From Syntrophaceae bacterium (GTDB lineage Bacteria > Desulfobacterota > Syntrophia > Syntrophales > Smithellaceae), in assembly GCA_018436925.1 (NCBI GenBank), contig JAHDKI010000001.1, positions 128,098 to 192,097 of the forward strand: a stretch of 64,000 nt of DNA. Direction: 5' to 3'. The notes under the pieces were generated by a model. The model worked only from the letters and a program-made list of their open reading frames with translations, was not told the DNA's origin and did not search any database. Both the position numbers and the translations under genes were made by a program. Shown piece after piece: positions 44,149 through 55,613 of this stretch (the first letter of the stretch is position 1; each line of letters opens with the position of its first letter).

Positions 44149-45393
44149 CTAGCGGTTGTTTTCCATCCAGTTTACCAGCGTCTGCCTGCGGTTGACGAAA
44201 CCTTTCATATGGGGGTCATCTTTGAGGATTTTTCCGAAGTTGGTCTTGTGCCGTTCCAGAACATCGAGCAATCTGCGCGGATAGAAAAGATAGACCTTCA
44301 TCGAATCGGCCGGAAGGGAATATTTGCGGGCAAGATCCTTTCGAGGCAGAAAAATCCGACGCCAGAGGATTTTAGCCTTGTCCCAAGGACTGGAATTCGT
44401 CACGAACTCGGCAAACGGTTGTGTGACCATTCGCGCGAGCTTTCGGTCCGTGAAGATTTGTCCGAGTGCGGACTCGATGATGTTTTCCGGCAGGTCGGCG
44501 GGACGCATCCTGCTTAAGACGTCTTCGGGCACCGATGCATCGAGCAGATCCTTGGCGAAATACAAAGCCAGATACACGCCGCGTTGCCACGCCCATTGAT
44601 TGGCGCGCTCAATCACCGCCTCCCAGTCCAGCGATGACCCATGCCGCTCGAGAACGGAAGCGATGTCGCAAGAGGGCCGCAGGCCGAAGTAAAACTGGTG
44701 CAGGTAAGAGGCATGCAGGCACAGGTGCAAAAGCAGGTCTTCGTTTGACAGCGACAAAGCCCGTGCGCCGGCCACGCTAAACGGCACGGTGCGCGTCCAC
44801 AGCGCCTCCGGGTGGATGCTGTAAGGTTTGTCCGGATTGGCGAGATTCCAGTGCACCTCGACCTTGGCGCAGCCCGATTTTAAAAAACCGGGCAGATGAT
44901 GTCCTTCGGGGCCGTCTTCCGTTTTCCCGGCGATCGCGGTCGCCGGTTGAAAGCCCATGGATTCCAGCATCGACGCCGCCGGATGAAGATGTTCCGGACG
45001 GACCAGCAGGTCCAAATCGTTCATTTCCCGCAGAGCCGGCATCTCATAAACCGCGCAGGCCAGCACGATTCCTTTGAGAAAAACAACCGGAATGCCGCGG
45101 AAGGCCATTTCGGCGGCAAGCAAGCGGGCCTGGGCCGCAAGGTCCAGATTTCGAAGCGCGTTGCTGCGAAAAGCCTTCTCAAAGGACGAAGCGGCTGCTG
45201 CGGGGATCCCGCCCTCAAGCTGCTTTTGCTTGATGCGGTGCCAGGCCAGCGGCGTCACGCGCTGATCGCGGGCGATATCGAGCATTTCAGTCCAGGCTTC
45301 GGCCGAAAGCGCACGGAGTCGTTCGTGTTGAACCGGCGCGTCCTTTTTCAGAATGTCCAGCAGCAGACGTTCGGTTTGTGAGGGATGTTTCAT
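44149..45393 (-). CDS. nucleotidyltransferase family protein (lasso-cluster type)
   Basis: LKGIVLA..VY..PALREMNDLDLLV, VEVHW, LHLCLHA; ATGA overlap with ABC gene. Confidence 0.85.
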   Translation of the reverse strand: MKHPSQTERLLLDILKKDAPVQHERLRALSAEAWTEMLDIARDQRVTPLAWHRIKQKQLEGGIPAAAASSFEKAFRSNALRNLDLAAQARLLAAEMAFRGIPVVFLKGIVLACAVYEMPALREMNDLDLLVRPEHLHPAASMLESMGFQPATAIAGKTEDGPEGHHLPGFLKSGCAKVEVHWNLANPDKPYSIHPEALWTRTVPFSVAGARALSLSNEDLLLHLCLHASYLHQFYFGLRPSCDIASVLERHGSSLDWEAVIERANQWAWQRGVYLALYFAKDLLDASVPEDVLSRMRPADLPENIIESALGQIFTDRKLARMVTQPFAEFVTNSSPWDKAKILWRRIFLPRKDLARKYSLPADSMKVYLFYPRRLLDVLERHKTNFGKILKDDPHMKGFVNRRQTLVNWMENNR

Positions 45394-47252
45394 GCGTTTG
45401 TCCTTGAGCAAGATCCGTCGGTCTTGCCGCCGCTCATCTGACGCTTCCATGACGCGGCGTATCGACCGCCTGCGGCAAGCAGCGCTTCATGGCTGCCGGA
45501 TTCGATGACCCGGCCCTGGTCCAGAACATGAATAATGTCCGCCTGCATCGCGGTGGTGAAGCGGTGCGTGATAATCAGCGACGTGCGGCCCGCGGTCAGT
45601 CTGCGGAATCGAGAAAGCCAGTCCGCCTCCGCCCAGGAATCCATGAAACTCGTCGGTTCATCCAGGAGGATCAGGTCGGCCTGCCGCAAGAACGCTCGCG
45701 CGAGCGCCAGGCGCTGCCATTCGCCGCCGCTTAACTCCGCGCCGCCGAACCACTTGCCCAGAATCGCCTGGTAACCTTCGGGCAGACGCGAAATCGGCGA
45801 ATCCGCCCCGGCATCTTTGGCGGCCTGTTCAACCCGGTTATCGTCCGGCCTGCTTTCAATGTCGCCCAGGGCGATATTGGCGCGGACCGTGTCGGCATAG
45901 CGCACCGGTTCCTGAAAAAGCACCGTAATCCGGCGGCGAAGATCCTCCGGCGAATAGTTTTTCAGATCGGTTCCATCGGCCAGCACAACGCCCGACGCCG
46001 GGTCATAGAAACGGCATAAGAGTTTGATGAGCGTGGTTTTCCCCGCGCCGTTTTCGCCTACCAGCGCCGTGATTTTTCCCGCCTCCACGGTGAGATTGAA
46101 TCCGTTTAACGCAGGCCGCTCATTTCCGGGATAGCAAAAAACAATGTTCCGAAATTCAATGGCTTTTTGCAGGCCGGTCCATGCGGCGGGTTTTTGCGGA
46201 GCATAAATACGGGGGGCCAGCGCCAGAAACTCGAAAAGATTTTCCAGAAACATCGTGTTGCGGTAGATTTCTCCGAAACTGCCCAGAAGCGATCGCATCA
46301 TGCGCTGCCCCTGAAAAAACGCCTGGGCAAACAGGGCCAGGTCGCCCAGAGTGTAAAGGCCCTGCGCGGCCCGAATGCCCATCCAGGAAAGCGCTCCGGC
46401 AAGGCCCGCCAAACCCAGAAGCGCCGCGCCTGCCGAAGCAAACGCCTCATCGCGCGCCAGGCGCACCCGGTCGCGGCGCAGTTTGCGCCGCAGCCCGGTA
46501 AAAAGCGTTCGGAAATGCGCGCCCAGATGAAACAGTCTCATTTCCGCCGCCGCATCGCGCGAGGTCAGCATCATATCGTAGTAATGGGTTTTGCGAATGG
46601 CCGGCGTGTTTTGCACCCGCCAGTGGTGAAAACGCATCGTATGGCGCAAGACGACCAGCAGGGCCGGGATGGTGCTCAGCGCCAGGACCAGTGGGATGGC
46701 CAGACCGAACGTCAAAAGCACGCCTGCCATCGCGATGAGGGTGATCAAACTTTGCGTGAGCGCGCCGACGTTTTCAAGAAGCGCGGCCGGCCGAGACAGC
46801 GCGTCCACCCGCGCCCGGTGAAGCTGGTCATAGTATCCGGGATCGTCATAATAGGACAAGTCCAGACGCATCGCCTGGGCATGAATCAATTCATGGACAT
46901 GATCCTGCACTTTTTCGGCTTGCTCTGTGCGCAGCCATCGACCGACGCCCGCGAGAACTTCCGTGGCGATCAGCACGCCTCCCATAGCCGCGGCGGAGGG
47001 GGCAAGAGTGATCAGATTGCGCGCGCCTGTGCCGGAGGCGATGACGGTTGCGACGCCATCGACCAGGACTTTGGTCAGATAAACCAGCGCCACCGGCAAA
47101 AGTCCCTGAACCATCAGCAGCAAAAGCCAGACGATCGTCAACGCGCCCGCCGCCCGATAGGCCAGCGCGAGCGCTCGCGGCACGTAGGGAAGCTGAGTTC
47201 GAAACCGGACGGCCGCTTTGGCCAACTGTTTAGGAAATGATTTCGAAATCAC
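45390..47252 (-). CDS. ABC exporter (fused permease + ATPase), lasso peptide D protein
   Basis: TM domain, GENGAGKTT, ELSGGEWQRLALAR, LLDEPTS, ITHR. Confidence 0.92.
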   Translation of the reverse strand: MISKSFPKQLAKAAVRFRTQLPYVPRALALAYRAAGALTIVWLLLLMVQGLLPVALVYLTKVLVDGVATVIASGTGARNLITLAPSAAAMGGVLIATEVLAGVGRWLRTEQAEKVQDHVHELIHAQAMRLDLSYYDDPGYYDQLHRARVDALSRPAALLENVGALTQSLITLIAMAGVLLTFGLAIPLVLALSTIPALLVVLRHTMRFHHWRVQNTPAIRKTHYYDMMLTSRDAAAEMRLFHLGAHFRTLFTGLRRKLRRDRVRLARDEAFASAGAALLGLAGLAGALSWMGIRAAQGLYTLGDLALFAQAFFQGQRMMRSLLGSFGEIYRNTMFLENLFEFLALAPRIYAPQKPAAWTGLQKAIEFRNIVFCYPGNERPALNGFNLTVEAGKITALVGENGAGKTTLIKLLCRFYDPASGVVLADGTDLKNYSPEDLRRRITVLFQEPVRYADTVRANIALGDIESRPDDNRVEQAAKDAGADSPISRLPEGYQAILGKWFGGAELSGGEWQRLALARAFLRQADLILLDEPTSFMDSWAEADWLSRFRRLTAGRTSLIITHRFTTAMQADIIHVLDQGRVIESGSHEALLAAGGRYAASWKRQMSGGKTDGSCSRTNA

Positions 47253-47295
47253 AAAAGAAGCCTTTCACTCGCCGGCGTTTGAATAAGCCGTATCT

Positions 47296-47778
47296 TTATG
47301 AGAACGTCGAGACGACGGTATATCGGCTGCGTCCCTGCGCGCCGGTTAGAATTGACGGTCCGGAGCGGACCCAGGCGTGCGCGGCAAGTTTGGGGTGGGA
47401 GGCGTCGTCTTTGGCCACCCCCAGGTAAAGCGTTGACGCAATATGCCGCCGCCCAAGCATCCATTTGGCTGTAACCGCCTGCGGCAGACAGACGCTGCCC
47501 CAGGGCGTGTAACCGGCTGCCGAGCGGACCGCCCCGCCGATGAGCCGAGCTGTTTTTAAGGCGTTCGGGCTGAGCCTCCGGTCCGTTTCTTTCATGTGTT
47601 CGCCCAGCGAGGCGGCAAGCCAGCGAAACGGCAAAACCAACACGGCCAGACGGGCCAGACCAAGAAGAAGAAAAGCCTCGATCAACAAAAGACGTTCCGT
47701 GCGCGTCCGCCTGCGCCATTTCGCGGACCAATCTTTAAGGGTTTGCCGCAATGAAAGTCTGTTTGCTGAAGATGTCAT
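47296..47778 (-). CDS. lasso peptide B2 leader peptidase (transglutaminase-like)
   Basis: TPWGSVCLPQA (catalytic Cys), LYLGV, AHAWV (catalytic His). Confidence 0.92.
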   Translation of the reverse strand: MTSSANRLSLRQTLKDWSAKWRRRTRTERLLLIEAFLLLGLARLAVLVLPFRWLAASLGEHMKETDRRLSPNALKTARLIGGAVRSAAGYTPWGSVCLPQAVTAKWMLGRRHIASTLYLGVAKDDASHPKLAAHAWVRSGPSILTGAQGRSRYTVVSTFS

Positions 47779-48638
47779 TCGTCAAGAACCTCTCCATGGA
47801 CATTGAGGTAACCGAAGCGCTGCATTACCTCCCGGTGATCTTCCACGATCCGACGAACCTGTGCATCGTTGAGTTCTTCGCGCCATGACCCGATTTTCCC
47901 GCTTCGAAAAAACTTCTTTGCCGAGGGGGGCTTTTCAATGAATCCTTCCACATCTTCCTGGGCTTGGAGACGTTGAAATGAACTGTGTTCCAACGCCAGG
48001 AGGATTCCGTCGTCGGAAGGATCCAGGCCGACAGCTCTGCTTGCCGCTGCGAAGGTTTGAAAAGGGTTTTTGTGCATGTCTTCATAGCGCACGACGTGCA
48101 CATCGAACGGGGTCTGATCCACCCAACTTTTTACATGGCTGCTCCACGACAACAACTTTTGGCGCAATTGGTTGTGTAGCCGATCACTTTTTTCGCAAGA
48201 GGTGAATCCGTTATCAGCCATCCGGGCAATGGTTGTGTCATAATCCCAGCCGCTGTGGTGAGCAAAGGAGACGGCCACATCCAGAGGATTGCGGATGAAA
48301 TACAACGCGCCGGCGGTTGCGTCACGCGGAATCAGGGGGCGGTTGTTGTCTAAATAAAGATAGGCGTCGTGAATCTTCATAAAAACAGGCCCGCTTACTT
48401 TTTGCGCCAGATGGATGTAGAGCTCAGGCCGCAAGCGGTCAATCTCATCGGCTGTCAAGTCCGAAGCCTCGAAGCCGATTTCATCGTCAAAAAGGAGCCT
48501 TGAGCTTGCGATTCGTGTTTTTCCCAGACGATTGATGCTTGCCGGTTCATCGGAATCTCCAAGCAGATTGCCCAGAAAAACACGAAACCAGGTGTTGCCG
48601 GATTTGGGATATGAAGCGAGCCAGATGATGCCGCTCAT
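47775..48638 (-). CDS. PAPS-dependent sulfotransferase (lasso cluster)
   Basis: WLASYPKSGNTW, KIH, IRNPLDVAVS, VRYEDM, FFRSGKIGSW; ATGA-coupled to both neighbours. Confidence 0.92.
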   Translation of the reverse strand: MSGIIWLASYPKSGNTWFRVFLGNLLGDSDEPASINRLGKTRIASSRLLFDDEIGFEASDLTADEIDRLRPELYIHLAQKVSGPVFMKIHDAYLYLDNNRPLIPRDATAGALYFIRNPLDVAVSFAHHSGWDYDTTIARMADNGFTSCEKSDRLHNQLRQKLLSWSSHVKSWVDQTPFDVHVVRYEDMHKNPFQTFAAASRAVGLDPSDDGILLALEHSSFQRLQAQEDVEGFIEKPPSAKKFFRSGKIGSWREELNDAQVRRIVEDHREVMQRFGYLNVHGEVLDE

Positions 48639-49543
48639 GCGTTTACCCGCTCGAGAATTTTATCTGCAAGCTCATTGATTTGAAAACCCCGCTTCGGTCG
48701 CGAGACTTTGACAATCGGAAGATTTGCCGCGACAGCGGCACATTGACGGAAATGATCCGCGGTTTTGCCCAACCCTTTTAGAAATCCCATGCGATAGGTA
48801 TTGGAGATAAGTTGATTAATTTTGTCCATGCCGGTGAGCTCCCACATTTCGATTCGCTCCGTATTGACCGCATCCAACACAAAAAGAGCCTGAAGCGCTA
48901 CCGGAGTGGCAACATTTTCCTGAATCGGTATGAAAAATTTTTCGAGATTTTTGATCCATCGAACGCTTTGCAGGTCGTCTTTGTTTTTTCCCAGTTTATC
49001 GAGTGCATCAGCCCAGAGCTTTAAGCGCGAAAAGCCTGGAATGAGAGAAGATTTTTTACCGGCAGGATCGATTGCGCAGACATCATCGGCGAGAAAAAGG
49101 CAACCCCTGTCGTGAAGCGCCGCGGACAGCGTCGATTTTCCGATGCCGGAGGGCCCGGCAAACGCAATCGCACCCTTGTTGACAGCTACCGCTCCCGCGT
49201 GCAGAACGAGGATGCCGCGCTGATGAAGAAGCGCCCCCATCGCTGAGCCCATCAGAAAAATCAAAATGCGTTCAAGGCTTGACTGAGGGTGAGGAGTAAC
49301 AAGAATTCTGCGCCCCTTCCTAATCCAGTACCGCGCGACGCCGTCCACGCAAAGCAGCAATTCGTCCGTCGAAGCTTGATAGCGCACGCCGGTCACTTGA
49401 GGGTGGTCGAGTTTTTCCGGCGTCTGGCCGTACTCAATGACGATGTCAGGATTTGCCGCTTCGGCGGGATCGCTGAGCATCGGCGCCGGCAGCGGCAGCT
49501 CGGAGAGAATTTTTAAACCGAAAACGTAATATGCCTGATTCAT
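48635..49543 (-). CDS. HPr kinase-like lasso peptide kinase
   Basis: LVLHAGAV, GPSGIGKST (P-loop), LADDV, LKLWAD. Confidence 0.88.
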   Translation of the reverse strand: MNQAYYVFGLKILSELPLPAPMLSDPAEAANPDIVIEYGQTPEKLDHPQVTGVRYQASTDELLLCVDGVARYWIRKGRRILVTPHPQSSLERILIFLMGSAMGALLHQRGILVLHAGAVAVNKGAIAFAGPSGIGKSTLSAALHDRGCLFLADDVCAIDPAGKKSSLIPGFSRLKLWADALDKLGKNKDDLQSVRWIKNLEKFFIPIQENVATPVALQALFVLDAVNTERIEMWELTGMDKINQLISNTYRMGFLKGLGKTADHFRQCAAVAANLPIVKVSRPKRGFQINELADKILERVNA

Positions 49544-49572
49544 GATCGGGTCCGGATAATATATTTGTGCGG

Positions 49573-49601
49573 TTTATATCGGAAAAGGATGCGGCTGTCA
49601 A
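49573..49601 (-). promoter_or_regulatory. putative sigma-70 promoter for kinase-sulfotransferase-B2-ABC-nucleotidyltransferase operon
   Basis: TTGACA-17 bp-TATAAA on minus strand. Confidence 0.65.
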
Positions 49602-49968
49602 AAAGGCAAACACGAATGCTCTTTTTAAGAATTTCCTTTTCCTGGAATCTTTATCAACATGGCTCATCCAGAGCGGTGAACTGCTTCACCAAGGCGTCTT
49701 TAAAGCGCACTCTATAAATATGTTTATGAATACAACGTATTAAAGTAAGAGTGGCTCTTTTTCCAAGCGTGAATATTCCAACAGGTTGTCTTTACGAACG
49801 AAAACAGTTCAAGCAATGGACGGAAATCTCCAGGTTTGACGTGAGATTTAACATGCCGGAGAACATCGCGACAGCTCGTTTGGGAAATCAAATAGTGCCC
49901 GATCCGGATGATGCAAATGGCGAGAAGGGGTGCGCTGTAAGGCATAGATTATATGGATCATTTTCCGG

Positions 49969-49985
49969 TGTCGGAATTATTTACA
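49969..49985. promoter_or_regulatory. candidate enhancer box 1 (PEP-CTERM/PrsR-type)
   Basis: TGTCGGAATTATTTACA, TGT-N11-ACA. Confidence 0.6.
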
Positions 49986-50055
49986 GATTCGCCTTTTGTC
50001 ATACACTCGAATACATTGATTTTTTTCCTGAAAGGCCCTTATTGCCTCTTGCGCC

Positions 50056-50072
50056 TGTCGTATAATTTTACA
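50056..50072. promoter_or_regulatory. candidate enhancer box 2 (PEP-CTERM/PrsR-type)
   Basis: TGTCGTATAATTTTACA, same TGTCG-N6-TTTACA pattern. Confidence 0.65.
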
Positions 50073-50156
50073 ATTGCGGTCAGCAACCCTGCTTCAGGCA
50101 AATCGATTGGTTATTTTAATCAATATATTCAGCAATGTGGAGATATTTATTGCGGG

Positions 50157-50172
50157 TGGCCCGCATATTGCA
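50157..50172 (+). promoter_or_regulatory. sigma-54 (-24/-12) promoter
   Basis: TGGCCCGCATATTGCA matches TGGCACG-N4-TTGC with exact spacing. Confidence 0.8.
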
Positions 50173-50242
50173 AGTTTGTTAAGGCAAAAGGAATAATTTT
50201 AGAGAAAACCTTAAACAGGCTTTAAATAGTGGGGAGGAAAAA

Positions 50243-50854
50243 ATGAAAAAAATATTATTAATCGGCGCTATGATTCTTTCGTTGATCGGTCTTGTCGGAT
50301 ACGCAGGCGCAACGACAATCGATTTTGAGGAATTTGCTGCGGGAACAACCGTTAGCGGCCCCGGCATATTCGATGATGTCGTATTTACCGCCGGATCTGT
50401 AAGTATTATAGCTGTGGGTGCGGTGCCCGGACCTGAGTTGTCAGGTAGCAGAACAGCTGCTTCATTCACCTTTTCTAATCCCGATCCTTTTAAGGCGGAG
50501 TTTCTAATTGCCGGCGTAAATTCAGTGTCCGTGGCCATGGGCGATTATAACCAAGATCAGGACAATTTATTTCTCATAGCCTATGACAGTTTAGGTTTTG
50601 TGCTGGATGAAGTGTATTACCAATTGTTAGGTGAGGTTTATGGCGGACCGACTCTGACGGTCAACGCATCTAATATTGCATATGTTCTATTTGGCAGCAA
50701 CAGTCCTGTCGATGCAAATTATGATTATCCCAACAGTATCTATTTTGACAATTTCACATACAATACAACCCCCGTACCTGAACCAACCGCTTTGATTCTT
50801 TTAGGTTTGGGGCTTCTTGGACTGGTCAGCTTACGAAGACGTTTAATAAAGTAA
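50243..50854 (+). CDS. PEP-CTERM sorting domain surface protein
   Basis: Signal peptide, TTIDFE start of mature region, C-terminal VPEP-TALILLGLGLLGLVSL-RRRLIK. Confidence 0.92.
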   Translation: MKKILLIGAMILSLIGLVGYAGATTIDFEEFAAGTTVSGPGIFDDVVFTAGSVSIIAVGAVPGPELSGSRTAASFTFSNPDPFKAEFLIAGVNSVSVAMGDYNQDQDNLFLIAYDSLGFVLDEVYYQLLGEVYGGPTLTVNASNIAYVLFGSNSPVDANYDYPNSIYFDNFTYNTTPVPEPTALILLGLGLLGLVSLRRRLIK

Positions 50855-50874
50855 GTTTAGAAAATCAATAATAC

Positions 50875-50919
50875 AAAAAAAGGCAGAGCAAACTTAAAAT
50901 AAGGCGCTCTGCCTTTTTT
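50875..50919. terminator. bidirectional intrinsic terminator
   Basis: AAAAAAA-GGCAGAGC...GCTCTGCC-TTTTTT between convergent PEP-CTERM and precursor genes. Confidence 0.8.
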
Positions 50920-50999
50920 GCATGGTGGCGATCTGTATTCTAAAAAACTACCAATAGGTCTTTGGTAAAAAACCTATATTTGAAAGCACTCACAACTCC

Positions 51000-51170
51000 T
51001 TAAGAAGCCCATCCCCCACCGTCCTCTAATGATGGAACCCCCCCGGAGCTTGTCTCGCTGCAAGCTATCTCTTCCAGCTTCGGAGCCTTCCAGTTTCTTT
51101 TAGGTTTCTCGGGAAGTTCATTTTCTAGGGGACTGGCGGATTTAATATTACCCGAAGATTGTTCTGTCAT
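51000..51170 (-). CDS. lasso peptide precursor (56 aa, not in ORF track)
   Basis: Hand translation MTEQSSGNIKSASPLENELPEKPKRNWKAPKLEEIACSETS-SGGVPSLEDGGGWAS*; GGAGG RBS; WxxPxL leader motif, Thr at -2, acidic residues at core positions 8/9. Confidence 0.9.
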   Translation of the reverse strand: MTEQSSGNIKSASPLENELPEKPKRNWKAPKLEEIACSETSSGGVPSLEDGGGWAS

Positions 51171-51205
51171 TTTCCTGCCTCCAAAAATACAATTGATTTA
51201 CTTGA

Positions 51206-51234
51206 TACATAGGCAAAAAGTATAGAGGTGTCAA
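51206..51234 (-). promoter_or_regulatory. putative sigma-70 promoter dedicated to the precursor gene
   Basis: TTGACA-17 bp-TATGTA immediately after the cyclase stop codon. Confidence 0.55.
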
Positions 51235-51235
51235 T

Positions 51236-53200
51236 TTATTTTTTGGGGGAGGCGCGAAGTTGGTCATCGGATAGCGCTTGATCCGAGCAAAAGGAAGCTG
51301 TCATCAGAAAATATCCGGTGTTCATGGCACGTAAAAAAGCACTCGTATCTGCAGGGTGTGCTGATGGGGCTGCTTGAAATGACGCCCAGATATGTCTCAT
51401 ATCCTTGATATTCAAGTATTTTAATATGGAAGAAGCGGTTTCTAATTGCTCCAATGCCTCTTCCGCTTCTTTTTTATGCGCAATAAGTCTTTTAAAAATG
51501 TCTGCCGATTGCTGACCACGACTTGTATTCCAGCATATCTCATCGGGAAGAATACCCTCCATTGCTTTACGAATCAGCATACGCTGGCCGCCTTGAAGCA
51601 TCATTTGATCATGGGGAAGACCGATACAAAATTCCAATAAGCGGATATCTGCCGTTGGATCAAGGATTGCCATATTGAAATGAGATGCCAATGTATTCCA
51701 GAAAGGTCCCACATATGTGCCGTTTCGTATCATAGTGGCGTGCCTTTCCGTTAAGGGATCCATTGGTTTTGATTGGACATTAAACCTTGAGTTTTCCATT
51801 AAGCCCAAACGTTTGATGAAATCTCTTTGAGGATAAGAATAATTAAGCGTTTTTCCTGGGGAGAAATATTGTCGGTATTGCGATAAAAAAGGCAAAAAAA
51901 GAGGTCGTAATATTTGACTTTTTATTGCTCTGAACCACGAAAAATTTCGTTGTTTACGCCAATTAGACAGTGCCCTTAAAGTTTCTAACAAGTGATTTTG
52001 AGTAAGAAGATAGAATATCCGGTCAGATCCGCCGCTCCATGAGATTCCGCCATTACCTAATTGTCCTGTAAGCAGAATACCGATATTGCGGCGTTTAGCA
52101 TTTTCAAGCATGGAGAGAATCCAAAACATATTGGCGGCGGCATGTTGAGGCATGTGGAATATTCTCAGGCTCGCTTTTATGGCTTCGATCGGTGTGATAT
52201 CGTCGCCGGGAATTGCAACATGTTCGACATTTTTATATTTTTCTGCAAGTTCATGAGCAAGAGGCCATTCATTTGCAATTTTTCCTGGAAAGTATTCTTC
52301 TGCTGGATAGACGGGAACTGAGGTAAAAGCGAAAATGCGGTCTCCCTTTTTCTGAAGTGCTTCGGCAGCCAATGCCGTTACAGCGCTTGAATCTAGGCCT
52401 GCGCTGAGTGTCGAACCGACAGGCCGGATGGAATTGAGGCGCACTCGGACAGCTCGACGAAAATGATCAAGGAATCCTTCCAGGTATGCTTCGTCCGACT
52501 TGAAGAATGTTGGTGACACGTTGTCCATCCGCCAGAAGTTATCGATATGCTTGTCGGAGTTCTGAAGAACGACAGCATGAGCTGCTGGAAGTAAACGGAC
52601 ACCTCGCCAAAAAGTTCTCGAATAATCTTTACCCATAAGATCATAGCCAAGATTTTGCGCGAGGTGAAGCTCATCAAGCGCCCGTGGAACGTCGAGCTGC
52701 GCGAGAACCGCTTGAATGCTTGACGCGAAGACGAGAAGCGGCGGTTTGAAGTAATAATAAAGTCCTGTGTTGCCCAGGTGATCACGGGCCAGAATAAGCT
52801 TTCGGTCGAGTTCATGCCAGGCGGCAAAAGACCAGTCGCCGTAAAGCTTTTTACAGGCGTCCCGCCCCCATTTTTTGTATGCCAGATATGCCAGGCGGCC
52901 GTCGGACGTCACCGGCCTTTCGGGATGCGGGATAGAGAAATAATCGCAAAGCTCATCGCGGTTGTCCAGGCGCGCCGCGGCGGTGAACGTGATCTTTTCT
53001 TCTTCATCCCGGAAGGGCATTTTTTCAAAGCGGGATTCGTGCGTGACGATCAATAAGGCATGGCCGAGCGCCGCGCTTCCTGCCGTGATCGTATGAAGTC
53101 CGTCCGGTCCCCATCCGGCCATCTGCTCCGCCATCGGCTGCAGATCATCACGCGAAACCGGTCGTCCGTCTAGATTTGCAAAGCCGAAAATCCCGCTCAA
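51236..53200 (-). CDS. lasso cyclase (asparagine synthetase-like C protein)
   Basis: TTG start after AGGAGG; MSGIFG lacks the N-terminal Cys of AsnB; ARLDNRDEL, ARDHLG, LSAGLDSS, LLTGQLGNG, RDP-like LDPTADIRLLEFC. Confidence 0.9.
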   Translation of the reverse strand: MSGIFGFANLDGRPVSRDDLQPMAEQMAGWGPDGLHTITAGSAALGHALLIVTHESRFEKMPFRDEEEKITFTAAARLDNRDELCDYFSIPHPERPVTSDGRLAYLAYKKWGRDACKKLYGDWSFAAWHELDRKLILARDHLGNTGLYYYFKPPLLVFASSIQAVLAQLDVPRALDELHLAQNLGYDLMGKDYSRTFWRGVRLLPAAHAVVLQNSDKHIDNFWRMDNVSPTFFKSDEAYLEGFLDHFRRAVRVRLNSIRPVGSTLSAGLDSSAVTALAAEALQKKGDRIFAFTSVPVYPAEEYFPGKIANEWPLAHELAEKYKNVEHVAIPGDDITPIEAIKASLRIFHMPQHAAANMFWILSMLENAKRRNIGILLTGQLGNGGISWSGGSDRIFYLLTQNHLLETLRALSNWRKQRNFSWFRAIKSQILRPLFLPFLSQYRQYFSPGKTLNYSYPQRDFIKRLGLMENSRFNVQSKPMDPLTERHATMIRNGTYVGPFWNTLASHFNMAILDPTADIRLLEFCIGLPHDQMMLQGGQRMLIRKAMEGILPDEICWNTSRGQQSADIFKRLIAHKKEAEEALEQLETASSILKYLNIKDMRHIWASFQAAPSAHPADTSAFLRAMNTGYFLMTASFCSDQALSDDQLRASPKK

Positions 53201-53253
53201 GTTCTGCCTCCTGAAAACCCCGTTTGAAAACCAGCCTTGGGGCTGCCTATCCT

Positions 53254-53532
53254 TTATTCCACGAAAATCAGATTGCGTTTTTCCAGATCGTTCAAAAAAG
53301 GCAGGACGTCGGCCGCGCATTGTTCGGCAGACACGTCATATTCGGCGCAAAGCTCCCGGCAGAGCTCCTCCACCGAAATTTTCGCATCGAGCTTTTTCCA
53401 GACTGCCGCCGCGATGGAATTAAAACCGTAATACTTGCCCGCCTCGACATCGAGCATGACCAGTTCGTCATCCACCGGCGCCTCAACCGGCGTTTTTTTG
53501 CGAAGAATAGAATTTTGCATGGATACGGCCAT
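53254..53532 (-). CDS. PqqD-family RiPP recognition element (lasso B1)
   Basis: VDDELVMLDVEAGKYYGFNSIAAAVW...EYDVSAEQCAADV..FLNDL. Confidence 0.92.
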   Translation of the reverse strand: MAVSMQNSILRKKTPVEAPVDDELVMLDVEAGKYYGFNSIAAAVWKKLDAKISVEELCRELCAEYDVSAEQCAADVLPFLNDLEKRNLIFVE

Positions 53533-53717
53533 CGTGATGACTCCATTTGTTTATAAAATTCGCCCCGATAAAGGTGCGTTGGGATATCTTCACCCGCTTG
53601 CGGATGACGTTTCAGACAAAGCATAAAAAGTGGCAAAGATCAAAGAATAGATCCATCTCAACTTGCACCCTATAACCCCGAATTTTGCACCATCCTGGAA
53701 TATGAAACCCTCAGGCT

Positions 53718-54215
53718 TTATCGGGTGTGAAATTCGTGAATCAGGATGGCCTCGCGAAGATACGATTGCGGATACTCTCTGAAGTCTTTCTCGCCAAAGC
53801 CCAGTTTTTCAAACCAGGCTTTGAGGTCAAGGTCTTCGACCATCACGCCGGCGTGGACGCGCTTTGCGCCAAGGCGCTGCGCTTCAGTAAGGCCATGGCG
53901 TACGAGCATTGCGCCAAATCCCTGCCGTCTGAATTCGTCCGATACGGCCAGCTGCGCTAAAGCGCAAACCTCGCTGCTGACATGCTCAAGCGCAACGGCG
54001 CCCGCCGGTGTGTCATTGTGTTCGAGAAGATAATAAACCACGCCGCGATTCAGATCCCGAAAAATCCAGTCGGGCCGGCAGTTGGACGGATGGCGGAGGG
54101 CATTTCGACAGTCAAGCCCGAAACGTTCGGCTTGATCCGCAAACGCTTCTGAAATCAGGCCGGACAGGGTTTCAGCGTCCCGGCTGTCGCATTTCCGAAT
54201 GTCGCCTTCCTTCAC
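53718..54215 (-). CDS. GNAT family N-acetyltransferase
   Basis: LAVSDEFRRQGFGAMLV acetyl-CoA motif, WFEKLGF. Confidence 0.85.
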   Translation of the reverse strand: MKEGDIRKCDSRDAETLSGLISEAFADQAERFGLDCRNALRHPSNCRPDWIFRDLNRGVVYYLLEHNDTPAGAVALEHVSSEVCALAQLAVSDEFRRQGFGAMLVRHGLTEAQRLGAKRVHAGVMVEDLDLKAWFEKLGFGEKDFREYPQSYLREAILIHEFHTR

Positions 54216-54359
54216 GGGGTGCGTCCCTCCTGTTTTTGGTGACGCATTTTAGCACAGGTGTGGAGTTTGTGAAATATCTTGAAGGAAAGCCGATTGTGTG
54301 TCAAATCTCGTGCCGTACCTTCGAATGCTTTCGCCAATGCTTTGCGGGGGATGCCCGAT

Positions 54360-55613
54360 ATGACTTTTTTGGACAGCGCCGCCTTGTCTTCCTATATCGT
54401 CCTTTTTGCGTTTTATGCCTTCCTGGGATGGCTTTTGGAGGTCGCCTACCGATCTTATAAAAATAAACGATTCATCAATGCAGGGTTTCTTTTCGGTCCG
54501 TTTCTTCCCATCTATGCTGCGGGGGCATTTTTTGTTCTTGCACTGGATCATCTTTTGCAGATCTGGCCCTGGTTTCTTCGGTTTCTTGTGTTTGCCGCGG
54601 CTGTGACCGCTCTGGAGTATCTGGTCGGCTTTTTTTCGGAGAAGCTCTTCAAACTGAAGCTTTGGGACTATTCGGAAAACCGCTTCAATATTCAGGGCCG
54701 CGTATGTCTGCGATTTTCTCTGTTATGGGCCGCGCTGGTATTGATTTTCGTCTTGGTTATCCACCCGGCGGTTCTCGGATGGACGGACGGATTGGATGAA
54801 GGCTTTTTGAAAGTCGGCGCTGTTTTGTTTGCCGTTTATATTGCGACCGACGCCACTTTCTCTGTCTTGTCGCTTGCGGCCTTTCGCCGGAAGGTTGCCT
54901 ACCTCTACACCGAGTATGTCAACCTCAGCAATGTTGAAGTAGAACGTCTGCTGGGGTCGATCCGTCGGCTTCGCGAGGCCTTCCCCGATCTGAACAAGTA
55001 CATTCGCAACAGCATTGATAAAAGTATCAAGGACCGCATTCAATCCCTGCTCAAACCGATTCAGAAAAAGATTATTCTGGAAATGCAAGGCAGAAAGCCG
55101 TTTGAGAAAGAATATTACGATCTGATCGGGGACATCTGCGAACATGAAGAATTTCTGAAATTAAAAGAGTATTTTCATCATAATTCGTCGATCTATCACC
55201 ACGTCCATGATGTGGCGTACCTGGCCTATCGGATCAGCAAATATCTGAAGCTTGATTACCGGTCGGCCACGCGCGGTGCGCTGCTGCACGATTTTTTCCT
55301 CTACGACTGGCGCAACCATGATGTGCCGGATCTGCCCAGAGAAAAGTTTCACGGCCTGGAACATCCGAAAATCGCCGTGGCCAATGCGAAAAGGCATTTT
55401 TCTCTAAACGATATTGAAGAGGATATTATCCGCAAGCACATGTGGCCGCTCACGCTTGTGCCGCCGAAATACAAAGAGTCGTTCATCGTCTCTTTTGCCG
55501 ACAAGTATCTGTCGTCAAAAGAATTTCTGAATGAATATAAAAAGAGGATTCATTTGCAGGCCCGCAAAATCACGGGTCGGGATCAAAAGAAACATCCTGA
55601 AAACAGCTGTTGA
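54360..55613 (+). CDS. putative ABC-permease-like membrane domain fused to HD-domain phosphohydrolase
   Basis: YAFLGWLLEV, GFLFGPFLPIY, WDYS..FNIQGRVCL; C-terminal RGALLHDFFLYDW, HPKIA, KHMWPLT, ADK. Confidence 0.8.
   Translation: MTFLDSAALSSYIVLFAFYAFLGWLLEVAYRSYKNKRFINAGFLFGPFLPIYAAGAFFVLALDHLLQIWPWFLRFLVFAAAVTALEYLVGFFSEKLFKLKLWDYSENRFNIQGRVCLRFSLLWAALVLIFVLVIHPAVLGWTDGLDEGFLKVGAVLFAVYIATDATFSVLSLAAFRRKVAYLYTEYVNLSNVEVERLLGSIRRLREAFPDLNKYIRNSIDKSIKDRIQSLLKPIQKKIILEMQGRKPFEKEYYDLIGDICEHEEFLKLKEYFHHNSSIYHHVHDVAYLAYRISKYLKLDYRSATRGALLHDFFLYDWRNHDVPDLPREKFHGLEHPKIAVANAKRHFSLNDIEEDIIRKHMWPLTLVPPKYKESFIVSFADKYLSSKEFLNEYKKRIHLQARKITGRDQKKHPENSC

What the first reader, a model, noticed from the sequence alone, without database searches (positions are those of the whole stretch)
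51000..51170. Unannotated lasso peptide precursor with core SGGVPSLEDGGGWAS
Seen: a 56-codon minus-strand ORF, below the ORF-track cutoff, directly downstream of the cyclase, with a GGAGG RBS: MTEQSSGNIKSASPLENELPEKPKRNWKAPKLEEIACSETSSGGVPSLEDGGGWAS. Known: lasso leaders carry a W/YxxPxL RRE-binding motif and Thr at -2, and cores cyclise residue 1 to an Asp/Glu at position 7-9. Inference: the 15-residue core starts at Ser1, forms a macrolactam to Glu8 or Asp9, has a GGG loop with Trp13 as the only bulky plug, and ends in Ser15. I do not recognise this core as a described lasso peptide.
Basis: partly seen in the sequence, partly recalled or inferred. Interest (0 to 1): 0.9.

Follow-up and report, generated by a model that had tools for sequence, protein, structure and literature searches.

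The report
Lasso peptide precursor in Smithella cluster
The 56-codon reading frame is a genuine precursor gene for a small knotted (lasso) peptide whose last serine is probably phosphorylated and sugar-decorated; it is a new member of a known kind, and exactly where its leader is cut off is still open.

Summary
The ORF at 51000-51170 (-) exists as described: 56 aa, ATG, GGAGG 7 nt upstream. It lies 65 nt downstream of a lasso cyclase, in a cluster with B1/RRE, B2 protease, HPr-kinase-like kinase, PsmN-type nucleotidyltransferase, sulfotransferase and ABC exporter.

Homologous 49-59 aa frames lie beside homologous lasso genes in 10 more places of related genomes. A profile of the 11 finds 198 proteins in 1.84 billion. 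Shared features are K-x-x-W-x-x-P-x-L, Thr at W+13 (144/148), an Asp 9-11 residues later, and a C-terminal Ser (127/144).

The core start is unsettled. Paeninodin-like numbering (W-15) puts Thr40 at -2, giving SGGVPSLEDGGGWAS. Across the family, a start one residue later gives Gly1 in 84/144 and a 7-9 ring in 141/144, against 114/144. The acceptor is probably Asp50, not Glu49.

No paper in the library holds the core. Verdict: new member of a known kind, moderate interest.

The parts
51000..51170 (-). Precursor gene (A), 56 aa plus stop
   Evidence: Single match in own genome. Homologues in 10 other places. Weak hit to NF033524, the paeninodin family: 13 bits, E 0.063, cutoff 27.
51178..51182 (-). 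GGAGG ribosome-binding site, 7 nt before the ATG
   Evidence: read directly.
51048..51170 (-). Leader, residues 1-41 if Thr40 is at -2. Holds K24, W27, P30, L32, E34 and T40. The leader would be 1-42 (51045-51170) if the core starts at Gly43.
   Evidence: W27, P30, E34 and T40 are invariant in 11 sequences. W27, P30 and T40 are invariant in 82. K at W-3 occurs in 119/144. The spacing equals PbaA K-18/W-15/P-12/L-10.
51003..51047 (-). The alternative core, residues 43-56, is 51003-51044.
   Evidence: D50 is the likely acceptor and S56 the likely kinase site.
51236..53200 (-). Lasso cyclase (C). The longest ORF runs to 53320. The likely start is TTG 53200, with AGGAGG 7 nt upstream.
   Evidence: NF033535 lass_lactam_cya 343.8 bits (cutoff 525), PF00733, PF13537. 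Start read.
53254..53532 (-). B1, PqqD-like RiPP recognition element
   Evidence: PF05402 1.3e-22; NF033536 6.9e-20. Best solved relative is 9x90_B (PbaB1), 1.5e-12.
48635..49543 (-). HPr-kinase-like lasso precursor kinase (K)
   Evidence: TIGR04352 6.5e-10 and PF07475 9.4e-5, both below curated cutoffs. The translation shows LHAG, GPSGIGKST and LADD. Homologues sit in 6 related clusters.
47775..48638 (-). Sulfotransferase; target unknown
   Evidence: PF00685 2.5e-23. YPKSGNTW is in the translation. Among the related loci it was found only in G003.
47296..47778 (-). B2, transglutaminase-like leader peptidase
   Evidence: NF033537 3.8e-31 (above cutoff 33 bits); PF13471 2e-27. Cys97 and His134 are invariant in 5 sequences.
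45390..47252 (-). ABC exporter (D)
   Evidence: PF00005, PF00664; MsbA-like hits.
44149..45450 (-). PsmN-type nucleotidyltransferase (N)
   Evidence: PF14907 6.1e-64. NDLDLL is in the translation. The PsmN role comes from PMC6993621.
53718..54215 (-). GNAT acetyltransferase upstream of B1; membership in the cluster doubtful
   Evidence: PF00583 5.2e-15. Next to the cluster only in G000 and G019 among the loci examined.
50901..50915 (.). Terminator-like hairpin on both strands, between the precursor and the convergent PEP-CTERM gene
   Evidence: Site counts do not exceed the shuffles, and the fold of 50900-51010 has z -0.46. Weak evidence.

Best explanation
The frame at 51000-51170 (-) is the precursor gene (A) of a class II lasso peptide of the kinase-tailored, paeninodin/pseudomycoidin type. 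The host belongs to the same GTDB genus as a MAG titled 'uncultured Smithella sp.'.

Shown:
- The ORF, its RBS and its place next to C, B1, B2, K, N, a sulfotransferase and an ABC exporter.
- A conserved family of such frames with K-x-x-W-x-x-P-x-L, Thr at W+13, an Asp 9-11 residues after that Thr, and a C-terminal Ser.

Inferred mechanism:
1. B1 binds the leader through K24, W27, P30 and L32, as PbaB1 binds K-18, W-15, P-12 and L-10.
2. The kinase phosphorylates Ser56 on the linear precursor.
3. B2 cuts after Ser41 (Thr40 at -2), my odds about 0.55, or after Ser42 (Thr40 at -3), about 0.35.
4. The cyclase joins the new N-terminus to Asp50. This gives a 9-residue ring (Ser1-Asp9) or an 8-residue ring (Gly1-Asp8) with the 6-residue tail GGGWAS.
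5. The PsmN-type enzyme adds hexose(s) to the phosphate. The sulfotransferase acts on an unknown site. The ABC transporter exports the product.
6. With so short a tail, Trp54 above the ring and the modified Ser56 below it are the likely locks.

The confidence of 0.85 is for 'genuine precursor of a kinase-tailored lasso peptide', not for the exact core.
For: - ORF and RBS.
- Cluster: cyclase NF033535 343.8 bits; B1 PF05402 1.3e-22; B2 NF033537 3.8e-31; kinase TIGR04352 6.5e-10; N PF14907 6.1e-64; sulfotransferase PF00685 2.5e-23; ABC exporter.
- Conservation: tblastn with the peptide finds a frame in 5 of 10 related loci. Profile A1 finds 9 of 47 genomes of the genus, G000 included, and two more places in G045. 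All 11 frames end in Ser. W27, P30, E34, T40 and D50 are invariant.
- Position: the frame is directly downstream of the cyclase in 8 of the 11 places.
- Wider family: 198 hits at E <= 0.001. Thr at W+13 in 144/148, C-terminal Ser in 127/144. Asp ends the acidic run in 140/144, followed by Gly in 86/144.
- Kinship with the paeninodin type: NF033524 is the only NCBIfam hit of the window peptide (E 0.063) and is hit by 14 of 82 relatives, best 2.1e-5. B1's best solved relative is PbaB1, 9x90, at 1.5e-12. By my own mapping of that alignment onto the paper's numbering, PbaB1 pocket residues Y39, I44, L65, Y69, V71, F83, L87 and L92 correspond to identical or similar residues of the window's B1.
- Roles of K and N: PMC8498205 passages, PMC9266682 passages, PMC6993621 passages.
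Against: - No product has been seen.
- The peptide scores below the curated cutoff of NF033524 (13 vs 27 bits). The cyclase (343.8 vs 525) and the kinase (38.6 vs 200) are also below their cutoffs.
- A plus-strand PEP-CTERM gene (50243-50854) separates A from K, the sulfotransferase, B2, D and N. The cluster is therefore at least two transcription units, and co-expression is not shown.
- No RNA evidence for the precursor. The one RNA contig laid covers only 52968-53211 at 95-99% likeness.
- The kinase site is inferred. BsfK phosphorylates Ser3, not a C-terminal Ser (PMC10368454 abstract), and this core has Ser at other positions.
- The register is not determined.
- The profile search with the family found no solved structure.
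Confidence: 0.85

Rival explanations
1. Same precursor, but the leader is cut one residue later. Thr40 is then at -3, the core is GGVPSLEDGGGWAS (14 aa), and the ring is Gly1-Asp8. This whole family would break the Thr(-2) rule.
For: All counts are on 144 family members.
- T+3 is Gly in 84, and Gly/Ser/Ala in 114. T+2 is Ser 39, Ala 33, Asn 24, Leu 10, Glu 9, Val 7, Asp 5, Gly 5.
- Asp/Glu at core positions 7-9: 141/144 with this register against 114/144 with Thr at -2. 28 sequences fit only this register, 1 fits only the other, and 2 fit neither.
- The conserved Asp sits at T+9 (65), T+10 (44) or T+11 (31). These are three consecutive values, which equal the known ring sizes 7, 8 and 9 only in this register.
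- In the T+11 group, T+2 includes Val 5, Met 2, Phe 1, Thr 1 and Glu 1, while T+3 is Gly/Ala/Ser/Asn in 28/31.
Against: - All characterised lasso leaders have Thr at -2 apart from the Ile(-2) case (PMC10368454 abstract and sections 22 and 26).
- The paeninodin-like leader PbaA is numbered W-15, P-12, L-10. That places a Thr at W+13 at -2. I did not see PbaA's own Thr in a call.
- The RRE helps to form the S2 pocket through a Tyr (PMC10368454 section 25), and the window's B1 keeps Y34 and Y35.
- Asn1 with Thr at -2 is now documented (metanodin, PMC12670498).
- In this register 65/144 rings would have 7 residues. That this size is rare among known lasso peptides is recalled, not from a call.
Confidence: 0.35
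2. The mature product is a branched cyclic peptide, or is threaded only while the C-terminal phospho-hexose is present. It is not a lasso held by Trp alone.
For: - The tail after the conserved Asp is only 6 residues here. In the family it is 5 residues in 54 and 6 residues in 44 of 144. 23/144 tails have no aromatic residue.
- Pseudomycoidin made without K and N is not threaded, and its authors speculate that the bulky C-terminal modifications lock the fold (PMC6993621 abstract, section 8 heading and conclusions).
Against: Nothing here tests topology. The window's tail does hold a Trp. Lasso peptides of about 15 residues with 7-residue tails exist (recalled, not from a call).
Confidence: 0.3
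3. The frame is a chance ORF or a non-coding spacer, or it is the precursor of another RiPP class.
For: It is short, and no curated family reaches its cutoff. The word-index protein search found nothing. The Atlas's nearest named clusters score only 0.75-0.76.
Against: Conservation of frame, length, RBS, leader motif, Thr, Asp and terminal Ser across 11 places and 144 further proteins. No other RiPP maturase was seen among the ORFs scanned between 42695 and 56755.
Confidence: 0.03

Closest known systems
Paeninodin (Paenibacillus dendritiformis C454) and the NCBIfam family NF033524
   Same: Split B1/B2 and an HPr-kinase-like K that phosphorylates the C-terminal Ser of the linear precursor (PMC8498205 and PMC9266682 passages). 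The W-x-x-P-x-L leader is shared. NF033524 is the only NCBIfam hit of the window peptide, with residues 24-40 matching profile positions 1-17.
   Different: The score is below the cutoff (13 vs 27 bits). The leader is much longer (41-42 aa). The core is much shorter (14-15 aa), Gly/Ser/Asp-rich and unrelated. The gene order differs, and the host is a syntrophic deltaproteobacterium-like MAG lineage rather than Bacillota.
Pseudomycoidin (Bacillus pseudomycoides DSM 12442)
   Same: K plus a PF14907-type nucleotidyltransferase (PsmN). The C-terminal Ser carries phosphate(s) and then one or two hexoses, and the bulky end is proposed as a lock (PMC6993621).
   Different: That cluster has no sulfotransferase. 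The core sequence and host phylum differ. Whether this N does the same was not tested.
PbaA/PbaB1 of Paenibacillus alginolyticus (PDB 9x90)
   Same: It is the best solved relative of the window's B1 (1.5e-12). Leader contacts K-18, W-15, P-12 and L-10 have the same spacing as K24, W27, P30 and L32.
   Different: The alignment shows roughly a third of residues identical between the RREs (my reading, not computed). The PbaA sequence itself was not seen in a call.
SyanA/SyanK (Sphingobium yanoikuyae) and ThcoA/ThcoK
   Same: Proteobacterial and firmicute kinases that add several phosphates to the C-terminal Ser.
   Different: I saw no sequences of these. The FEBS Lett 2016 paper is not in the library.
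BsfA/BsfK (Bradymonas sediminis)
   Same: A deltaproteobacterial lasso cluster with K and N (PMC10368454).
   Different: There -2 is Ile and the kinase acts on Ser3 in the ring. Here an invariant Thr and a terminal Ser are kept.
Metanodin
   Same: It shows that position 1 may be Asn with Thr at -2. This bears on relatives here with Asn at T+2.
   Different: The core is unrelated. I saw no kinase tailoring reported in the abstract and passages I read.

Membership tests
Lasso peptide precursor (split-B type) | Encoded beside an Asn-synthetase-like cyclase, a PqqD-like RRE (B1) and a transglutaminase-like peptidase (B2) | tested here: met
   C lies 65 nt upstream, B1 directly upstream of C, and B2 about 3.2 kb downstream on the same strand.
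Lasso peptide precursor (split-B type) | Leader motif [Y/W]xxPx[L/V/I] | tested here: met
   W27-K-A-P30-K-L32. W and P are invariant in 11 and in 82 sequences.
Lasso peptide precursor (split-B type) | Thr at the penultimate leader position (-2) | tested here: inconclusive
   Thr40 is invariant, and Thr sits at W+13 in 144/148. That equals -2 in the W-15 numbering of PbaA. Family statistics favour a cut one residue later.
Lasso peptide precursor (split-B type) | Asp/Glu at core position 7, 8 or 9 | tested here: met
   Glu49 and Asp50 are positions 8 and 9 in one register and 7 and 8 in the other.
Lasso peptide precursor (split-B type) | Small ORF conserved beside homologous cyclases | tested here: met
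Lasso peptide precursor (split-B type) | Mature product with loss of water and a threaded fold | not testable with these tools
   Needs expression and MS/NMR.
Paeninodin family lasso peptide (NF033524) | Score at or above the curated cutoff of 27 bits | tested here: not met
   13 bits, E 0.063. 14 of 82 relatives match at E <= 1, best 2.1e-5. I therefore do not file it as a member of that curated family, only as working like it.
Kinase-tailored (phosphorylated) lasso peptides | HPr-kinase-like gene in the cluster | tested here: met
   TIGR04352 6.5e-10 and PF07475, both below curated cutoffs. Homologous kinases are in the G019, G034, G003, G032, G030:C3 and G045:C29 loci.
Kinase-tailored (phosphorylated) lasso peptides | Precursor ends in Ser | tested here: met
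   Ser56. 11/11 local relatives and 127/144 of the wider family end in Ser.
Phospho-glycosylated lasso peptides (pseudomycoidin type) | PsmN-type nucleotidyltransferase (PF14907) in the cluster | tested here: met
   PF14907 6.1e-64. Its activity was not tested.

The most novel reading that the evidence does not exclude
This is a large, unstudied family of very small, acidic, Gly/Ser/Asp-rich lasso peptides. Cores are about 12-16 residues, and the tail is only 5-6 residues in 98 of 144.

The family cannot obey both textbook rules at once. Either the invariant leader Thr sits at -3, or about a fifth of the members (33 of 144 with Asp at T+11 or T+12) form rings of 10-11 residues.

The modified C-terminal Ser (phosphate, hexose, perhaps sulfate) would then serve as the lower steric lock that so short a tail otherwise lacks.
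Probability: 0.3. Interest if true: 0.7.

Novelty: new member of a known kind. Interest (0 to 1): 0.45.

Why it matters
- The core is not in print in the library searched, and no paper there pairs Smithella with lasso peptides.
- The cluster joins three tailoring genes: a kinase, a PsmN-type enzyme and a sulfotransferase. In the passages read, the review mentions the sulfotransferase only as putative. I did not search further for sulfated lasso peptides.
- The family gives a sharp, cheap test. Cleaving one precursor with Asp at T+9 and one with Asp at T+11 in vitro would show whether Thr(-2) or the 7-9 ring rule gives way.
- Genome-mining tools that score Thr(-2) and ring size together would mis-call or miss part of this family.
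- The peptide itself is an ordinary addition to a described type. No bioactivity can be inferred.

Tried and rejected
- Word-index protein search with the peptide: no candidate. This is not evidence of absence, because the HMMER scan found a 73%-identical protein, P0051.
- PDB profile search with the family: 0 hits.
- Atlas: the top three clusters are unnamed (0.89-0.90). The nearest named ones are lasso leader families at only 0.75-0.76. This is a lead, not evidence.
- Sequencing runs and laid contigs: one DNA contig of X1 covers the precursor with no difference and may be the source sample. The RNA run X20 covers only 52968-53211. I draw no conclusion on expression or habitat.
- Terminator and promoter scans and a fold of the region after the stop (z -0.46): not above shuffles.
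- Genome-contig scan with the cyclase: 1 locus. It is useful only for its record title.
- Literature search for lasso rings of 10 residues: 25 papers hold two of the six terms. Among the 15 listed, only one holds 'lasso peptide', a peptidomimetics review that I did not open. So 'no 10-residue ring is known' rests on the 7-9 statements in PMC6993621 and PMC5067487 and on recall.
- A register with W at -17 (core from Gly44) is rejected. Only 87/144 sequences then have Asp/Glu at positions 7-9.
- In the class-wide search, the matches in G260 and G264 (E 0.007-0.009, in frames of 227-245 aa) and G030:C356 (E 0.044) were not inspected and are not counted as precursors.
- No precursor was found in L029 (G030:C3), where the cyclase lies at the contig start. 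None was found in L023, L030 or L031, where the cyclase runs into the contig end.
- Supplementary files of PMC10368454 and PMC13381572 hold leader alignments and were not seen. They may bear on the register.

Full report
**Observation.** One search shows the minus-strand frame 51170->51000. It has an ATG start and 56 codons, with GGAGG at 51178-51182, 7 nt upstream. It is the only start-bearing reading of a 65-codon open frame. Nine in-frame codons precede the ATG and none of them is ATG, GTG or TTG.

**Surroundings.** On the same strand, from upstream to downstream:
- a GNAT acetyltransferase (53718-54215);
- B1, a PqqD-type recognition element (53254-53532; PF05402 1.3e-22, NF033536 6.9e-20);
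- the cyclase (51236-53320; NF033535 343.8 bits, below its cutoff of 525; PF00733, PF13537);
- the small ORF;
- a plus-strand PEP-CTERM protein gene (50243-50854);
- back on the minus strand, an HPr-kinase-like gene (48635-49543; TIGR04352 6.5e-10);
- a sulfotransferase (47775-48638; PF00685 2.5e-23);
- B2 (47296-47778; NF033537 3.8e-31);
- an ABC exporter (45390-47252);
- a PF14907 nucleotidyltransferase (44149-45450; 6.1e-64).

The cyclase most likely starts at TTG 53200 behind AGGAGG, which gives M-S-G-I-F-G-F.

This gene set is the one described for phosphorylated and phospho-glycosylated lasso peptides. K phosphorylates the C-terminal Ser of the linear precursor. PsmN, of the same uncharacterised nucleotidyltransferase family, is needed for one or two hexoses on that phosphate (PMC8498205 passages; PMC9266682 passages; PMC6993621 passages). 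The review mentions a putative sulfotransferase gene in some such clusters without a function.

**Is the ORF conserved?** The cyclase has relatives of 43-63% identity in 8 of 60 related genomes. After I fetched their contigs, tblastn with the peptide found a matching frame in 5 of 10 loci. Each frame lies just downstream of the cyclase, has a start codon behind a GGAGG-like sequence, and is 55-59 aa long. Of the other five loci:
- three end inside the cyclase;
- one (G045:C99) holds its precursor next to B1;
- in one (G030:C3) none was found.

A profile of the six frames found matches in 9 of 47 genomes of the genus, the window's own included, and one place only in the window's genome. In 339 genomes of the class it added only G045, plus two uninspected weak matches.

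The 11 peptides share W27, P30, E34, T40 and D50 without exception, and all end in Ser. Eight of the 11 lie directly downstream of the cyclase. G065 is cut by its contig end, and the two G045 copies have other gene orders.

A profile of the 11 against 1.84 billion representative proteins gave 198 hits at E <= 0.001. 148 of the best 150 are at most 130 aa. P0051 is 73% identical to the window's peptide, and its core region reads SSGDLPPTEDGGAWSS.

**Kinship.**
- The window peptide's only NCBIfam hit is NF033524, 'paeninodin family lasso peptide'. It scores 13 bits, E 0.063, against a cutoff of 27, with residues 24-40 on profile positions 1-17. 14 of 82 relatives match at E <= 1, best 2.1e-5.
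- B1's best solved relative is PbaB1 (9x90_B, 1.5e-12).
- In that crystal structure the paeninodin-like leader is held through K-18, W-15, P-12 and L-10 (PMC13381572 section 8). The window has K24, W27, P30 and L32 at the same spacing, and K at W-3 occurs in 119/144 relatives.
- By my mapping of the alignment onto the paper's numbering, the pocket residues Y39, I44, L65, Y69, V71, F83, L87 and L92 correspond to Y35, I40, L61, Y65, V67, F79, L83 and L88 of the window's B1.

**Where does the core start?** Thr40 lies at W+13, as in 144 of 148 family members.

The family's own statistics point one residue further.
- T+3 is Gly in 84/144, and Gly/Ser/Ala in 114. T+2 is Ser 39, Ala 33, Asn 24, Leu 10, Glu 9, Val 7, Asp 5, Gly 5.
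- An Asp/Glu falls at core positions 7-9 in 141/144 sequences if the core starts at T+3, but in 114/144 if it starts at T+2.
- The conserved Asp sits at T+9 (65), T+10 (44) or T+11 (31), with two each at T+8 and T+12.
- Thr at -2 therefore implies rings of 8, 9 and 10 residues. Thr at -3 implies 7, 8 and 9, the sizes stated for lasso peptides.
- In the T+11 group, Thr at -2 would also put Val, Met, Phe, Thr or Glu at position 1 in 10 of 31 sequences.

Against the shift:
- the Thr(-2) rule holds in all characterised cases but one;
- a Tyr of the RRE contributes to the S2 pocket, and the window's B1 keeps it;
- Asn1 has been documented.

For the window's peptide both registers give canonical values. 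I put Ser42 at about 0.55 and Gly43 at about 0.35. A multimer model that might have helped could not be run.

**Acceptor and tail.** The first acidic run in T+8..T+12 ends in Asp in 140/144 sequences. Only 2 of 144 have no Asp there. The next residue is Gly in 86/144. Glu49-Asp50-Gly51 fits this pattern, so Asp50 is the likelier acceptor. The ring is then Ser1-Asp9 or Gly1-Asp8.

The tail is GGGWAS, 6 residues. In the family it is 5 residues (54) or 6 (44) of 144. It holds one aromatic residue in 89, and that residue is most often next to the terminal Ser (Tyr 46, Phe 19). Cores are 25% Gly, 15% Ser and 10% Asp, and almost free of Lys, Arg and His.

So short a tail leaves room for a loop of three or four residues, one residue in the ring, and one below it. 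Trp54 and the modified Ser56 are the candidates for the two locks. This takes up the speculation made for pseudomycoidin. It is inference only.

**Organism.** The contig of G019, a genome of the same genus, bears the title 'uncultured Smithella sp.'. No paper in the library pairs Smithella with 'lasso peptide', and none holds the core strings.

**Verdict.** This is a real lasso precursor and a new member of the kinase-tailored type. It does not reach the curated cutoff of the paeninodin family, so I say it works like that type rather than filing it there. Its core boundary, acceptor and plug are plausible but unproven, and it overlooked the C-terminal Ser tailoring.

Noticed in passing
window 44163-54146 against L024 (G019:C36): The two clusters are a mosaic. 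DNA identity is 80% over N, the ABC exporter and B2 (44163-47744), and 84% over the N-terminal ~430 codons of the cyclase, B1 and the GNAT (52029-54146). The stretch between them is diverged: the cyclase C-terminus, the precursor, the kinase, and a sulfotransferase that G019 lacks. There is only a 67% patch in the kinase. Protein identities are B1 96%, B2 95%, cyclase 62%, kinase 50%, and the cores are unrelated. This looks like exchange of a specificity cassette.
   Followed up: partly
window 50243-50854 (+); L038 651-1232; L024 5429-5509: A PEP-CTERM protein gene lies convergent to the precursor, between A and K. A 54%-identical copy lies next to the G065 precursor, and a 27-aa remnant sits at the same place in G019. 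Whether it belongs to the system is unknown.
   Followed up: partly
P0001-P0150: In 33 of 144 family members the conserved Asp is 11 or 12 residues after the invariant Thr. These cannot have both Thr at -2 and a ring of 7-9 residues.
   Followed up: yes
window 47775-48638 (-): A sulfotransferase with a PAPS-loop-like YPKSGNTW sits inside a lasso cluster. Among the related loci it was found only in G003. The window's core has no Tyr, and no target can be named.
   Followed up: no
window 53718-54215 (-) and 54279-55613 (+): A GNAT acetyltransferase and a divergent CmpB/HD-domain membrane protein flank the cluster in both G000 and G019 (87% and 72% identity). They are not seen in the other loci. 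The window's core has no Lys for an albusnodin-like acetylation.
   Followed up: no
G000:C26:156878-158551 and 176117-176986: Two further Asn-synthetase-like genes in the same genome, 27-28% identical to the cyclase. They are probably ordinary amidotransferases. Not examined.
   Followed up: no
L022 (G030:C350) 133-1736: A second, distant B1 (32%) and cyclase (22%) pair lies about 2.5 kb downstream of the first lasso set on the same contig.
   Followed up: no
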